64,000 nucleotides of DNA, from the IMG/VR virus record IMGVR_UViG_3300010158_000028, positions 64,001 to 128,000 of that record; one strand, given 5' to 3'. Source of the DNA: a virus. Made by a program: the position numbers and the translations under genes. Positions 25,949-29,087 of this stretch are shown here, piece after piece. The notes below the pieces were generated by a model. The model saw nothing but the letters and a program-made list of their open reading frames with translations. It was not told the DNA's origin and searched no databases. Every line of letters begins with the position of its first letter. Positions within the stretch are counted from its first letter, which is position 1.

Positions 25949-26006
25949 AGTGTAGATCGCCGAGTTGCAGCTCGCACCTACTCTAATACGAAAGGACCGT
26001 ATCAGT

Positions 26007-26507
26007 ATGACTATTTATTCTTCTAAAAACAGACCTAATCATTTTTATGTATATGCTTATCTAAGAGATAATAATTTACCTTATTATATAGGTAAAGGTT
26101 GCAGAGATAGAGCATGGAACAAAAATCATTCAATAAACATACCTAATGATAACACAAAAATAATAATAATGCAAGCTAATTTAACGGAAATTGGAGCATT
26201 TGCCATAGAAAGAAGAATGATTCAATGGTATGGAAGAATTGATAATGGTACAGGTATACTTAGAAATTTAACTGATGGTGGTGATGGAACATCCGGTTAT
26301 AAACAATCAGAAATACACATACAAAAACGAAAAAAAGCTAGACTTTTAAGTGGATATAATCATACACCAGAATCTAAAAATAAATTATCAATTAATAAAA
26401 CAGGTAAACTTAGACCAGATCATAGTCAAAAAATGAAACAGTATTGGGATAAAAAAACAAAAGAAGAAAAATTACAACATTCCAAAAAAACTTTTAATAA
26501 AAATTAA
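26007..26507 (+). mobile_element. Free-standing GIY-YIG-type homing endonuclease gene
   Basis: FYVYAYLR..PYYIGKG..R, IER.MI..YGR, LRNLTDGGDG and a NUMOD3-like HTPESKNKLS; the only plus-strand gene. Confidence 0.85.
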
Positions 26508-27199
26508 ATTTTTAATTCTATATTATAAAACTTATAATTAAATTTTTCATCGTCATACATCTTTACTCTGCCAACGAAGTGTGTCAAGGTATAATTAACA
26601 TGTTTGCCTATTCTAAAATCATCAGAGATATCATAAAGAACCGCTTCTTCTTTATTATCACCTAATCTAAGTCCACGACCAATTGATTGTAGATTACGAA
26701 TTTTTGATTTAGATGGTGATGCAAATATTACATTATGTAAATTACGTATATTAATACCAGTTGAGAATGTACCGTATGAAGCAACAATAATGGCATCTGT
26801 TTCACGTTCAGTTATATCTCTAATAGATTCTCTAACTTCGGTATCAGTACCACCATATACAAAAAATACTTTACGTTTACCTGCTTCTTCTTTTATAATA
26901 TTATGTAGAACTTTACCATGTTTATCTACAAATTGAAATAGTATTAATGAATTACCTTTCAACGACAAGGCAAGATTCTTTATAAATGCATTTCTTGCTG
27001 TGTTCAATACTATATATTCAATCTCTTCTTTGTAGTCCCACTTCTTAGATAACTTACAAACTTCTTCTGGATATTTAAGTATTAAACATTTAATCTTAAA
27101 TTTAGATAACTGTTTGTTATCCATTAATTCTTTTGTTGTTGTTGCTTTATATACTGGTCCAAATAAACCTTCTAATACTAATCTATGAACATTACTCAT
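26504..27199 (-). CDS. uvsW: UvsW helicase, C-terminal fragment (second RecA domain)
   Basis: HRLVLEGLFGPV, VASYGTFSTGINI, LQSIGRGLR. Confidence 0.92.
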   Translation of the reverse strand: MSNVHRLVLEGLFGPVYKATTTKELMDNKQLSKFKIKCLILKYPEEVCKLSKKWDYKEEIEYIVLNTARNAFIKNLALSLKGNSLILFQFVDKHGKVLHNIIKEEAGKRKVFFVYGGTDTEVRESIRDITERETDAIIVASYGTFSTGINIRNLHNVIFASPSKSKIRNLQSIGRGLRLGDNKEEAVLYDISDDFRIGKHVNYTLTHFVGRVKMYDDEKFNYKFYNIELKI

Positions 27200-27854
27200 T
27201 TTTTTCCATAATATTTTTTAACATTTGTTGTCGTCTTTTTTCTATCAATAATAAAGATTTTTCTTTACCTAAAAGTTCTTCGTATGTTTTGCCTCTTGAC
27301 CAATCACCAATTTTTTTCTTAGATTCTTCTGTGTGTGGATATCTGCCACTATATGTTAATTGTTCAAAGGATATTTTTCCATCAATAAAAGAATACAACC
27401 TTCTTTTTGTTGTTTGTAATTTTTCCCAAGCTTCTTTTCTACTTTTATACTTTATTCCATTTATTTCTATTTCTTTAGCATTTGGATTATTTTCTGACAT
27501 TCTTTTCATTTCTTTATCAGAAAGAGTTTTACCTTTATGATGTAAACTTGCTGATAAAGAGTGTGCTTTTCTAGCTATTTCATAACCAATTGAAGTGTAG
27601 TACCTATTAGTAGAATCATGGTATCTCATCATGCCAAAAGCATGACCCATTTTAATTTTATCTTTTCCTTTTGAAAATTTCCATAATAACCAATGACACA
27701 CAAAGTGTTCTCTTGCTGTCAATTTTACTTTATTTTTTTTACCATTGTCACCACCTAAAGATTTAGGTATTATATGGTGCTCCTCAAAATACTCGGTCAA
27801 TGTCCGAGTATTAGCTTTTTCTATTATAGAGTAATATATTTTTTGATAGTCCAT
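27192..27854 (-). mobile_element. MobE-like HNH homing endonuclease gene inserted within uvsW
   Basis: MDYQKIY, EEHHIIPKSLGG, LTAREHFVCHWLL, NUMOD-like HTEESKKKI. Confidence 0.9.
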
Positions 27855-27859
27855 ATTTC

Positions 27860-27867
27860 TATTTATG
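27860..27867 (-). promoter_or_regulatory. Late-promoter variant CATAAATA, 5 nt before the HNH start
   Basis: Same 5-nt spacing to ATG as the TATAAATA box before gp3. Confidence 0.55.
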
Positions 27868-27889
27868 CGTTTTAGTTCCTTCTAATAGG

Positions 27890-28660
27890 TTAATTAGATA
27901 ATGTTCCGGTGCAACCTATTCTATATTTTGCATTAACCAATTGTGTCATGATTGTGGCGAGTGATTTGGCTTTAAATTGGTGTGCCTCATCACCTATAAC
28001 AAAATCAAATTGATTGAAGTATTCAGGTGGATTTTTGTAGATAGATTGCCATGTTGTGATGGTCAAAAACTTATCTGTGACCTTATCTTTACCTGCATAC
28101 TGTTTATGACAAAACTCTTCTGAGTTATATCCATAAGATTGAAAGTCGGTATACATCTGTTCAACGAGTGAAGTTGTTGGTACAACCAATAAACCTTTTC
28201 TTTGTGTTTGCTGAATATATCTCAACATCAAATAAATGATTAAAGATTTACCTGATGCAGTAGGTGAAAGAAGTAGAATTCTTTTATTACGGATTGCATG
28301 AACAAAAGAGTTAACTTGATAGTCACGAGGTTCAAATGGCAAACCAAGTGTCTGTATAAAGTCATTGGCTTCTTTTAGGGAGTAATTGTCTGTGACTGTT
28401 ATCTCAGAATCAATCTCAATTTTGTAATCTCTTTCTTTACAAAACTTTTCAATATAAGGTACCAAGCCATGGTATATTTCCATGGTTCTTAAATTTAGGA
28501 GCCTCACCTTCCCATCCCAAACTCTCGCTTTAAATTTGGGTGTGTATTGATAACCTGGAACATAAAATTCAAAATATTGAGAAAGTTCTTGTGCTACATT
28601 TCTTTCTGATACTACTCTGATAAAGGCTTCGTTGACCTTTTCTAATCTTAAATCATACAC
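27890..28660 (-). CDS. uvsW: UvsW helicase, N-terminal fragment (first RecA domain)
   Basis: PRDYQ, SPTASGKS, GDEAH; ends RIGCTGTLSN* just after motif III. Confidence 0.92.
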   Translation of the reverse strand: MYDLRLEKVNEAFIRVVSERNVAQELSQYFEFYVPGYQYTPKFKARVWDGKVRLLNLRTMEIYHGLVPYIEKFCKERDYKIEIDSEITVTDNYSLKEANDFIQTLGLPFEPRDYQVNSFVHAIRNKRILLLSPTASGKSLIIYLMLRYIQQTQRKGLLVVPTTSLVEQMYTDFQSYGYNSEEFCHKQYAGKDKVTDKFLTITTWQSIYKNPPEYFNQFDFVIGDEAHQFKAKSLATIMTQLVNAKYRIGCTGTLSN

Positions 28661-29087
28661 CCTGTATAAACCTTTCCCATGTTATAAAGTCCCTCAGTTG
28701 AAATGTCCTACTATTTAGTTCTTTCATAATACTCTGACACACTTCAACAATTTCATCATGCATAACTTTAATTGCAACATACTTGTTTAGGTCATCATCA
28801 CTTTCAAGATATGATGCCACTTCAGATTTAAGAACAAAAGGAAATGGTTCCCAACCATACTTCTTAAGTTGGTCATCATCTAGTTTACCAGTATAGTATT
28901 CCCACTTTACTCTACGCATTTTGTTATACTTAAACTCTGCTTCTTTAGACAACAACCTATGTCTTGAAAGCATATTCAAGTATTTGCTATGTAATTGTGG
29001 TATATTAATTAATTCTCTGCCAGGTTCTGTTCTATCAATCACAGAATCTTTGCGCCACATTTCTAATAATTCATCAAGTTTATTCAT
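28653..29087 (-). CDS. uvsY: Recombination mediator UvsY
   Basis: W.KDSVID, IPQLHSKYL, KWEYYTGK. Confidence 0.92.
   Translation of the reverse strand: MNKLDELLEMWRKDSVIDRTEPGRELINIPQLHSKYLNMLSRHRLLSKEAEFKYNKMRRVKWEYYTGKLDDDQLKKYGWEPFPFVLKSEVASYLESDDDLNKYVAIKVMHDEIVEVCQSIMKELNSRTFQLRDFITWERFIQGV

What the first reader, a model, noticed from the sequence alone, without database searches (positions are those of the whole stretch)
26504..28660. uvsW helicase split into two apparently intact genes by a MobE-like HNH endonuclease, with no visible intron or intein
Seen in sequence: the N-fragment (27890-28660) has the Q motif, Walker A, DEAH and motif III, then stops (…IGCTGTLSN*). A 220-aa HNH ORF follows. 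The C-fragment (MSNVHRLVLEGLFG…) starts at an ATG overlapping the HNH stop (ATGAGTAA) and keeps motifs V/VI. Neither half shows decay, and only 35 nt are non-coding. Established: Aeh1 nrdA is split by mobE and T4 gene 39/60 by mobA, and the pieces reassemble as proteins. Inference: this is a two-chain SF2 helicase, broken close to the RecA1/RecA2 boundary so that the ATPase site must form in trans. I do not recall a described case for UvsW.
Basis: partly seen in the sequence, partly recalled or inferred. Interest (0 to 1): 0.82.

Follow-up and report, generated by a model that had tools for sequence, protein, structure and literature searches.

The report
Phage UvsW helicase split by endonuclease
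A selfish, still-mobile endonuclease gene has cut this uncultured T4-like phage's only UvsW repair-helicase gene into two intact genes, and the helicase most likely works as two chains: a new example of a known kind of gene breakage.

Summary
uvsW, the only copy in a 161 kb, ~96% complete genome, is two open reading frames: N 28660..27890 and C 27199..26504. A 35-nt spacer and a 220-aa MobE-like HNH gene lie between them. No intron, intein or added tails were found.

All 74 IMG/VR relatives that read across the junction are uninterrupted there. Eleven independently assembled loci, and at least 16 C-half protein lineages, show the same break. Split alleles are scattered among intact ones on the tree.

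The window shares an 833-nt tract (28012..27180) at 98.8% identity with locus L125, inside flanks that are 60-72% identical. This is the expected mark of homing with short co-conversion.

The spacer is a frame-shifted relic of the original codons. Those codons also supply a late-promoter-like box.

Two relatives have lost the endonuclease yet stay split with both halves open, and ω is well below 1. A co-fold docks C residues 2-20 onto the N half, so the break lies about 20 residues before the lobe boundary. Function as two chains is inferred, not shown.

I found no published case for UvsW. This scan has already noted other split-uvsW variants in at least 28 genomes. Verdict: a new member of the genes-in-pieces kind.

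The parts
27890..28660 (-). uvsW N fragment, 256 aa. Holds the UvsW_N domain, Q motif, Walker A, DEAH and motif III, and ends TGTLSN-TAA.
   Evidence: ORF. Pfam UvsW_N 1.3e-15 and ResIII 1.5e-22. T4 UvsW 1RIF/2OCA residues 10-262 at 1e-40. Motifs invariant in 24 N-half-only proteins.
27886..27901 (-). 16-nt insert relative to intact alleles. It encodes L-S-N-stop and pushes the original downstream codons out of frame. It may also protect the allele from its own endonuclease.
   Evidence: Comparison of ten split loci with six intact alleles. An insert of the same length sits between the Thr codon of TGT and the relic in every lineage read through it. The immunity role is inference, by analogy with the MobA element.
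27859..27885 (-). Relic of the original uvsW codons. Read in the +1 frame it spells L-E-G-T-K-T-H-K-stop, against L-D-G-T-Q-T-H-K/R in intact alleles. Positions 27867..27860 read CATAAATA, one mismatch from the T4-type late promoter TATAAATA, 5 nt before the endonuclease ATG.
   Evidence: Frame translations of ten split loci all show L(E/D)GT(K/E)(T/S)(H/Y)K. Promoter function is inference. No conserved hairpin: z from -0.9 to +1.6 and different folds in each locus.
27192..27854 (-). Free-standing MobE-like HNH homing endonuclease gene, 220 aa. Its last 8 nt overlap the start of the C fragment.
   Evidence: phrog_655 at 9.6e-39. T4 mobE 33% identity, E 1e-16. The HH..N..H motif is kept in all copies. 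ω 0.09-0.22 between copies. 99% aa identity to the L125 copy, dS 0.017.
26504..27199 (-). uvsW C fragment, 231 aa. Has its own ATG behind an A-rich leader. The head MSNV replaces the original GTQT. Residues 2-20 belong to the N lobe, followed by RecA2 with motifs IV-VI and the C-terminal region.
   Evidence: ORF. Helicase_C 3.7e-8. T4 UvsW 2OCA residues 273-501 at 6e-42. Motifs invariant in 17 C-half-only proteins. Co-fold interface made by residues 2-20.
27180..28012 (-). Recently transferred tract. It covers the last ~120 nt of the N fragment, the spacer, the endonuclease gene and the first ~20 nt of the C fragment.
   Evidence: Only 10 mismatches to L125 in 833 nt, against 60-72% identity on both sides. 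dS is 0.017 in the endonuclease, 0.47 in the N half and 2.6 in the C half.
28653..29087 (-). uvsY, the upstream syntenic neighbour. Its stop overlaps the GTG start of the N fragment.
   Evidence: Pfam UvsY 8.8e-29. Same order uvsY-uvsW in all related loci.
25965..26507 (+). Second free-standing endonuclease-like gene (GIY-YIG/NUMOD3-like, 180 aa), convergent on uvsW. Its end overlaps the C fragment's stop by 4 nt. It is absent from every relative examined.
   Evidence: NUMOD3 at 0.0019. phrog_314 homing endonuclease at 1.4e-7. Alignment gap in relatives. In other split loci the next gene follows the C fragment directly.

Best explanation
**What it is.** A mobile cassette built around a free-standing MobE-like HNH homing endonuclease gene sits in uvsW directly after helicase motif III.

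**How the cassette is built.** A 16-nt insert brings the stop codon that ends the N fragment. The original codons LDGTQTHK survive out of frame as the spacer, and their His-Lys codons form a late-promoter-like CATAAATA just before the endonuclease start. The 3' end of the endonuclease gene carries a new ATG-AGT-AAT-GTT head from which the C fragment is translated, probably by coupling or from an A-rich leader without a Shine-Dalgarno sequence.

**How it spreads.** The cassette moves between co-infecting T4-like phages by cutting endonuclease-free uvsW alleles and being copied in during repair, together with about 120 nt of upstream flank and about 20 nt of downstream flank.

**How the helicase works.** There is no RNA or protein splicing. 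UvsW is made as two polypeptides. They are held together mainly because the first ~20 residues of the C chain (HRLVLEGLFGPVYKAT) are structurally part of the N lobe and dock into it. RecA2, with motifs IV-VI, can then close on the ATP site of RecA1.

**What is shown and what is inferred.** Shown: the anatomy, the fixed insertion site, the lateral spread, the absence of intron and intein signals, and the persistence of both halves. Inferred: endonuclease activity and its target, promoter use, translation of the C chain, assembly and helicase activity.
For: - **Insertion.** 74 of 74 junction-spanning IMG/VR relatives are uninterrupted there. N residue 256 is followed directly by C residue 2, and none carries the HNH gene.
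- **Junction signature.** Intact alleles read TGTL-DG-TQTH(R/K)L-VLEG. Split alleles end the N ORF at TGTL-(S/P/A/H)N-stop (L120: TGTLESNVS-stop) and start the C ORF (M/L)SN(V/I/T/P)HRL-VLEG (L121: MSNFKTHK-LVLEG).
- **Recurrence.** The same three-ORF layout occurs in L088-L091, L120, L121, L123 and L125, and in the gene table of P0100. There are 21 N-half-only clusters of 256-260 aa and at least 16 C-half-only lineages that start MSN..HRLVLEG.
- **Mobility.** Split alleles are polyphyletic among intact ones. The window and L125 share 833 nt at 98.8% identity inside flanks of 60-72%. dS is 0.017 in the endonuclease, 0.47 in the N half and 2.6 in the C half.
- **Endonuclease identity and upkeep.** phrog_655 at 1e-38 and T4 mobE at 1e-16. 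ω is 0.09-0.22 between copies.
- **No intron or intein.** Rfam is negative in eight loci. There is no Hint domain and there are no extra residues.
- **Function retained.** uvsW is the only copy in a ~96% complete genome. All motifs are invariant or nearly so. ω is 0.07 for L125 against L126 in the C half, and 0.11 (N) and 0.30 (C) for the split sisters L123 and L124. L122 has lost the cassette and L124 keeps only ~85 nt of the endonuclease gene, yet both stay split with both halves open. The C-fragment ATG is kept although the endonuclease stop falls in different registers (overlap of 8 nt or 4 nt).
- **Assembly.** Co-fold score 0.84 against 0.00 for the best of 3 controls. That mark was reached by 58 of 80 solved complexes and 2 of 110 mismatched pairs. 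The runs agree in at least 81% of contacts and the partner's pLDDT is at least 76. The confident interface is C residues 2-20 against N residues 12-69, 114-133 and 223-254. I supplied my own alignments, so those counts hold only roughly. A like structure is solved (T4 UvsW, 2OCA), so the pass may reflect memory of that fold rather than binding.
Against: - No transcript, protein or activity data exist. The phage is uncultured.
- dS is saturated between most split alleles. Because the cassette moves laterally, much of the low ω predates each insertion. The only split-split sister pair has few substitutions: 6 non-synonymous against 6 synonymous codons in the C half, ω 0.30, higher than its neighbouring genes uvsY, DUF6561 and the 174-aa ORF (0.06-0.11) though close to Metallophos (0.23).
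- T4 uvsW mutants are viable (my own knowledge), so a broken gene could persist for some time.
- No Shine-Dalgarno sequence is conserved ahead of the C fragment. If its translation depends on a weakly expressed endonuclease, the two chains could be made in unequal amounts.
- In the characterised cases (Aeh1 NrdA, T4 gp39/gp60) insertion-derived tails are needed for activity. Here the tails are only 2 and 4 residues long.
- Rfam is not a sensitive detector of group I introns that carry large ORFs.
Confidence: 0.78

Rival explanations
1. The insertion inactivated uvsW. On this view the two ORFs are young pseudogene halves that have not yet decayed, and the phage manages without UvsW or with a host helicase.
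For: The cassette arrived recently in this lineage (dS 0.017 against L125), so little time may have passed. The C half of the split sister pair has ω 0.30 from only 12 changed codons. T4 uvsW mutants are viable (my own knowledge).
Against: Both halves are open with all motifs invariant or nearly so in 11 loci and at least 16 lineages, whose endonuclease copies have themselves diverged to 72-81% aa identity. In L122 and L124 the endonuclease has decayed or gone while both helicase pieces stay intact. The C-fragment start codon is kept even where the endonuclease ends in a different register. ω is 0.07 for L125 against L126.
Confidence: 0.12
2. The 696 nt from TAA to ATG are a group I intron that carries the HNH ORF, and splicing restores a single uvsW mRNA.
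For: Removing 27892..27197 is in frame and gives a linker of the same length as in intact alleles. The 5' exon would end in U and the 'intron' in G, which are the minimal group I rules (read).
Against: No intron family hit at E<=10 in the window or E<=1 in seven other loci. Only 35 nt lie outside the ORF, and these are a relic of exon codons, not ribozyme sequence. No conserved structure was found. L122 and L124 have deleted most or all of the element and still keep separate stop and start codons. The ATG/TTG start and the MSN head are conserved in at least 16 lineages.
Confidence: 0.03
4. The halves have taken on separate functions. For example, the N piece might act as a DNA-binding or ATP-binding factor on its own, rather than the two re-forming one helicase.
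For: The T4 N-terminal fragment 1-282 is a stable, crystallisable unit (1RIF). An earlier scan note reports a phage with the two halves 26 kb apart (unchecked).
Against: ATP hydrolysis in SF2 helicases needs motif VI from RecA2 (established knowledge), and motifs V and VI stay invariant in C halves. The N piece here lacks the ~20 residues that complete the 1RIF unit, and these are carried by the C piece and are invariant (H5, L7-G14). That argues for obligate pairing.
Confidence: 0.05

Closest known systems
Genes-in-pieces NrdA of Aeromonas phage Aeh1: mobE inserted in nrdA (Friedrich 2007, cited in PMC2988022; Crona 2010, PMC3045599)
   Same: A free-standing MobE-type HNH endonuclease sits inside a conserved DNA-metabolism gene of a T4-like phage. 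It splits the gene at a functionally critical region and overlaps the downstream piece. There is no RNA or protein splicing, and the pieces reassemble as proteins.
   Different: The host gene is uvsW, an SF2 helicase. In Aeh1, insertion-derived charged tails are essential for activity. Here the tails are only SN and MSNV, and the predicted glue is a native 20-residue segment of the helicase left on the C chain. Here the element is seen in many lineages, with a mapped co-conversion tract. Activity is untested.
T4 MobA element splitting topoisomerase into genes 39 and 60 (PMC2988022; Manning and Atkins, bioRxiv 10.1101/2022.08.31.505936)
   Same: An HNH Mob endonuclease repeatedly inserted at one site. 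Most insertions are recent and laterally acquired. The endonuclease is progressively lost while the host gene stays split. A short extra insert near the target is proposed to protect against self-cleavage.
   Different: There is no 50-nt translational bypass and there are no conserved CTE/NTE tails. The 16-nt insert here ends the N ORF rather than being hopped over.
Fractured genes with split inteins and an intervening endonuclease (Dassa et al. 2009, PMC2677866)
   Same: A phage DNA-metabolism gene is broken with a free-standing endonuclease between the pieces, with a late-promoter element upstream of the endonuclease. The endonuclease can be lost while the gene stays broken. Relative L124 has exactly this arrangement in uvsW at motif II (DE|CH).
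   Different: The window's break has no Int-N or Int-C, so the chains cannot be ligated. UvsW is not among the hosts listed in that paper.
T4 SegE beside uvsW (PMC2988022, table of T4 endonucleases)
   Same: A free-standing GIY-YIG endonuclease gene lies next to uvsW and targets uvsW of related phages. The window has a GIY-YIG/NUMOD3-like gene abutting the 3' end of uvsW.
   Different: SegE does not split the gene. The window's GIY-YIG-like gene is only weakly assigned to a family, and its target is unknown.
Two-CDS uvsW annotation of Prochlorococcus phage P-HM1 (NC_015280, PHM1_126 and PHM1_127)
   Same: uvsW is annotated as two overlapping CDSs that break about 10 residues downstream of this site.
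   Different: There is no endonuclease and no cassette signature. The break is one extra T in a T-run, and removing it restores ...EGVFGTVNKVTKT.... It is therefore a frameshift or a homopolymer sequencing error, unrelated to this element.

Membership tests
Endonuclease-generated genes-in-pieces (Aeh1 nrdA/mobE type) | The host gene is contiguous in related genomes and is interrupted here at a single point | tested here: met
   74 of 74 junction-spanning relatives are uninterrupted, and N residue 256 abuts C residue 2.
Endonuclease-generated genes-in-pieces (Aeh1 nrdA/mobE type) | The intervening ORF is a free-standing homing endonuclease | tested here: met
   phrog_655 at 9.6e-39. T4 mobE 33% identity, E 1e-16. 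It has its own start and stop in a different frame from uvsW.
Endonuclease-generated genes-in-pieces (Aeh1 nrdA/mobE type) | No self-splicing intron surrounds the endonuclease | tested here: inconclusive
   Rfam is negative in eight loci. Only 35 nt are non-coding, and these are an exon relic. Deletion derivatives keep the split. This is strong but indirect. RT-PCR was not possible.
Endonuclease-generated genes-in-pieces (Aeh1 nrdA/mobE type) | The pieces assemble into an active enzyme without being ligated | not testable with these tools
   Support is indirect only: conservation and ω and a co-fold score of 0.84 against 0.00 for the best control, with the caveat that the related structure 2OCA is solved.
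Fractured genes with split inteins (Dassa 2009) | Int-N at the end of the N piece and Int-C at the start of the C piece | tested here: not met
   No Hint or Intein_splicing hit in either piece, and no residues beyond the intact protein. As a contrast, L124 piece 1 has Intein_splicing at 4.3e-9 and Hint at 3.1e-8, at another site.
Group I intron with a nested homing endonuclease | A ribozyme core (P3-P9) flanking or overlapping the ORF | tested here: not met
   No Intron_gpI or other intron hit at E<=10 or E<=1. No fold in the spacer departs from its shuffles.
UvsW helicase (T4 UvsW, PDB 2OCA) | UvsW_N domain plus an SF2 core with motifs Q, I, II, III, V and VI, next to uvsY | tested here: met
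   Pfam UvsW_N, ResIII and Helicase_C. 2OCA residues 10-262 at 6e-40 and 273-501 at 6e-42. uvsY lies directly upstream.
MobE-type HNH endonucleases | Sequence similarity to T4 MobE and an HNH catalytic motif | tested here: met
   tblastn to T4 mobE at 1e-16. The HH..N..H motif is kept in all copies. Pfam HNH models score only below threshold.
MobE-type HNH endonucleases | Site-specific nicking or cleavage of the endonuclease-free allele, and homing | not testable with these tools
   Activity was not assayed. Lateral transfer with a bounded co-conversion tract is the expected footprint.
T4 gene 60-type translational bypass | Matched take-off and landing codons around a short gap, conserved across copies | tested here: not met
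   The flanking Leu codons match in four lineages only (window, L088, L089, L125) and differ in L090, L091, L121 and L123. The relic frame ends after 9 codons.

The most novel reading that the evidence does not exclude
UvsW in this phage group is an obligate two-chain SF2 helicase that needs neither splicing nor insertion-derived tails. The endonuclease cut about 20 residues short of the lobe boundary, so the C chain keeps a native segment that completes the N lobe and ties the chains together. The arrangement outlives the endonuclease. It also coexists in relatives with a second break at motif II that is mended by a split intein, giving a three-piece helicase gene with two different repair solutions.
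Probability: 0.6. Interest if true: 0.62.

Novelty: new member of a known kind. Interest (0 to 1): 0.52.

Why it matters
- **A further host gene.** This adds a helicase to the short list of essential-type phage genes that survive being cut by a free-standing homing endonuclease. The published cases are NrdA, topoisomerase and DNA polymerase.
- **A full natural series.** Sequence data here cover the whole life cycle of such an element: intact targets, active insertions with a mapped co-conversion tract, a decayed endonuclease, and complete loss that leaves the gene still split.
- **A testable design rule.** In the Aeh1 and T4 cases new tails are needed to reassemble the enzyme. Here none exist, and the break point itself appears to leave a native docking segment. 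That suggests where an SF2 helicase can be split and still work.
- **An economical cassette.** The element reuses host codons as its promoter and carries the stop and start codons that the broken gene needs.

Tried and rejected
- **Spacer pattern scans.** The scans with GGNACTAAAACNCATAAATA in IMG/VR and in the metagenome collection returned only chance matches, with no uvsW or HNH. The single metagenome scan was wasted.
- **Misreading of the spacer.** I first took the spacer's TTAGAAGG as a copy of the VLEG codons inside the C fragment.
- **P-HM1.** It looked like a cultured-phage precedent for split uvsW. It is a T-run frameshift.
- **Direction of the mosaic.** I first thought the C half was the divergent part. 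Sliding identity showed that the genomic background is ~70-77% and that parts of the N half are the unusually similar blocks.
- **Pairwise dN/dS among distant split alleles.** This is uninformative because dS is saturated.
- **Regulatory hairpin.** No conserved hairpin upstream of the endonuclease was found, unlike in Aeh1 mobE and the fractured genes.
- **Deposited phage genomes.** megablast and blastn found no copy of the cassette, only short HNH-motif matches.
- **Friedrich 2007 (PMC1851037).** The paper could not be read. Its content is cited through PMC2988022 and PMC3045599.
Full report
**1. The observation**

On the minus strand the window carries uvsY (29087..28653) and then three ORFs.
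- A 256-aa ORF (28660..27890) ends ...IGCTGTLSN-TAA.
- After 35 nt comes a 220-aa ORF (27854..27192).
- A 231-aa ORF (27199..26504) begins MSNVHRLVLEG. Its ATG lies 8 nt before the end of the middle ORF.

Pfam places UvsW_N, ResIII and DEAD in the first ORF and Helicase_C in the third. The middle ORF matches the phage homing-endonuclease family phrog_655 at 9.6e-39. It also matches T4 mobE at 33% identity over 85% of its length, E 1e-16.

The window is part of a 161 kb virus record estimated at 96% complete, and that record holds no other uvsW. The closest cultured relatives by major capsid protein are cyanomyoviruses at about 62% identity. This is an uncultured T4-like lineage.

**2. It is an insertion, and where exactly**

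Eighty related IMG/VR loci were fetched with the N fragment. In all 74 whose contig reads across the junction, N residue 256 is followed directly by C residue 2, and none carries the HNH gene.

Intact alleles read TGTL-DG-TQTH(R/K)L-VLEG. Split alleles end the N ORF at TGTL-(S/P/A/H)N-stop, or TGTLESNVS-stop in L120. They start the C ORF (M/L)SN(V/I/T/P)HRL-VLEG, or MSNFKTHK-LVLEG in L121.

Against the solved T4 UvsW, N residue 254 aligns with T4 262 and C residue 10 with T4 273. The crystallised T4 N-terminal fragment 1RIF extends to residue 282. The break therefore lies directly after motif III, about 20 residues before the end of the N-terminal lobe.

**3. No intron, intein, tails or recoding**

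- **Intron.** A permissive Rfam scan finds no intron family in the window (E<=10) or in seven other split loci (E<=1).
- **Intein and tails.** Neither helicase piece has a Hint domain. Neither has residues beyond those of intact alleles. That excludes split inteins and the long tails seen in Aeh1 NrdA and T4 gp39/gp60.
- **The spacer.** The +1 frame always spells L(E/D)GT(K/E)(T/S)(H/Y)K. This is the original LDGTQTH(K/R), displaced by a 16-nt insert that brings the stop codon. Its His-Lys codons plus the next bases read CATAAATA, one mismatch from the T4 late promoter, 5 nt before the endonuclease ATG.
- **Hairpin.** No hairpin is conserved there, and no fold departs from its shuffles.
- **Recoding.** The idea of a ribosomal hop over the insert fails. 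The flanking Leu codons match in four lineages only, and the relic frame stops after nine codons.

**4. The same break is widespread and laterally spread**

A length-restricted protein search found 21 clusters of N-half-only UvsW of 256-260 aa. A second search found many C-half-only proteins of 231-237 aa. At least 16 lineages below 90% identity begin MSN..HRLVLEG.

Genomic contexts were read for eleven loci, listed here.

| Loci | Layout |
|---|---|
| Window, L088, L089, L090, L091, L120, L121, L123, L125 | N + spacer + HNH + C |
| P0100 contig (gene table only, no DNA) | Same three-ORF layout |
| L122 | No cassette; the two ORFs overlap in ATGAGTGA, as a deletion between two AAAT repeats would leave |
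| L124 | Spacer kept, but only the last ~85 nt of the HNH gene remain |

L121 shows the layout although its N half is only about 54% identical to the window's. In L091 the 5' end of the HNH gene is frameshifted in an A-run.

On trees of either half, split alleles are scattered among intact ones.

The window and L125 differ at 10 of 833 positions between 28012 and 27180, while both flanks are 60-72% identical. dS is 0.017 in the endonuclease, 0.47 in the N half and about 2.6 in the C half. This is the expected footprint of homing with about 120 nt of upstream and about 20 nt of downstream co-conversion. The endonuclease copies are themselves under purifying selection, with ω 0.09-0.22.

**5. 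Is the helicase still used?**

Evidence in favour:
- All helicase motifs are invariant or nearly so in 24 N halves and 17 C halves.
- ω is 0.07 for the C half of split L125 against intact L126. For the split sisters L123 and L124 it is 0.11 (N) and 0.30 (C), though from few changes.
- L122 and L124 have lost the endonuclease but keep both pieces open.
- The C-fragment start codon is kept even though the endonuclease stop falls in different registers.

A co-fold of the two chains scored 0.84, against 0.00 for the best of three controls. That mark was reached by 58 of 80 solved complexes and 2 of 110 mismatched pairs. The runs agree in at least 81% of contacts, and the partner's pLDDT is at least 76. 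I supplied my own alignments, so the counts hold only roughly. T4 UvsW is a solved structure, so the pass may reflect memory of that fold rather than binding.

What the model adds is the geometry. The confident interface is made only by C residues 2-20, against N residues 12-69, 114-133 and 223-254. That agrees with the 1RIF boundary. These residues (H5, L7 to G14) are invariant in C halves.

Evidence against:
- dS is saturated between most split alleles, and much of the low ω may predate each insertion.
- T4 uvsW mutants are viable (my own knowledge).
- No Shine-Dalgarno sequence is conserved before the C fragment.

I put the functional two-chain reading at roughly 0.8, and the pseudogene reading at roughly 0.1.

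**6. Comparison with what is known**

The arrangement works like the Aeh1 nrdA/mobE genes-in-pieces case and the T4 MobA element. Shared features are the same endonuclease type, a fixed site, recent lateral insertions, progressive loss of the endonuclease while the gene stays split, and a short insert near the target that may give immunity.

It differs in three ways. The host gene is different. There are no functional tails or bypass. The predicted glue is a native segment of the helicase.

It is not a split-intein fractured gene (Dassa 2009). Relative L124, however, carries exactly that at motif II of the same gene, as well as this break.

I found no published description of an endonuclease-split UvsW. 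No deposited phage genome carries the cassette. This scan has already noted other split-uvsW variants in at least 28 genomes.

**7. Verdict**

This is a new member of a known kind: well documented by comparison, of moderate interest, and directly testable.

Noticed in passing
window 25965-26507 (+): A second free-standing endonuclease-like gene (GIY-YIG/NUMOD3-like; phrog_314 at 1.4e-7) converges on uvsW and overlaps its stop by 4 nt. Every relative examined lacks it. The position recalls T4 segE, which sits beside uvsW and targets it.
   Followed up: partly
L124:884-3696: uvsW lies in three pieces in a sister of L123. Piece 1 holds residues 1-225 plus an Int-N that passes the Pfam Intein_splicing and Hint thresholds. 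Next comes a 271-aa endonuclease-family ORF (phrog_15427). Then a 70-aa piece holds Int-C (...VISN) followed by CHQFKAK...TGTLHN. After that come the spacer with a deleted HNH gene and an intact C fragment. One gene therefore carries a break mended by a split intein and a second break left unmended.
   Followed up: partly
L122:1700-1800: Split uvsW with no endonuclease. The N and C ORFs overlap in ATGAGTGA, as a deletion between the AAAT at the end of the N ORF and the AAAT(G) at the end of the endonuclease ORF would produce. It is a single contig, so a sequencing frameshift cannot be excluded.
   Followed up: partly
window 28260-28500 and 28640-28690: Blocks of the uvsW N half are 95-100% identical to the endonuclease-free clade L005-L012 and to L125, in a genome otherwise ~70-77% identical to them. 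This suggests repeated recombination around this gene beyond the cassette tract itself.
   Followed up: partly
L001:3280-3330 (Prochlorococcus phage P-HM1, NC_015280): The deposited two-CDS uvsW annotation (PHM1_126 and PHM1_127) comes from one extra T in a T-run. It is probably a homopolymer sequencing error or a true frameshift, not an endonuclease split.
   Followed up: yes
PHROG families phrog_16259 and phrog_9690: These 'DNA helicase' families have the lengths and match ranges of N-part-plus-Int-N and Int-C-plus-C-part of UvsW. Uvsw genes fractured by a split intein therefore seem to be present already among deposited phage genomes.
   Followed up: no
L124:5867-6511: A NUMOD3-containing ORF lies between the Metallophos (gp47-like) and SMC_N (gp46-like) genes. 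L123 lacks it, so it is another free-standing endonuclease insertion in the same neighbourhood.
   Followed up: no
L013 (contig end at N residue 215) and L126 (contig start at ...KYRIGCT), both from sample 3300008459: Two contigs from one sample end inside uvsW close to the insertion site. Assembly may break there because alleles with and without the cassette coexist in the population.
   Followed up: no
L091:4810-4880: The 5' end of the HNH gene is frameshifted in an A-run, giving a stop after 20 codons. A 196-aa ORF resumes at a GTG just before the HH motif. This is either early decay or a sequencing error.
   Followed up: no
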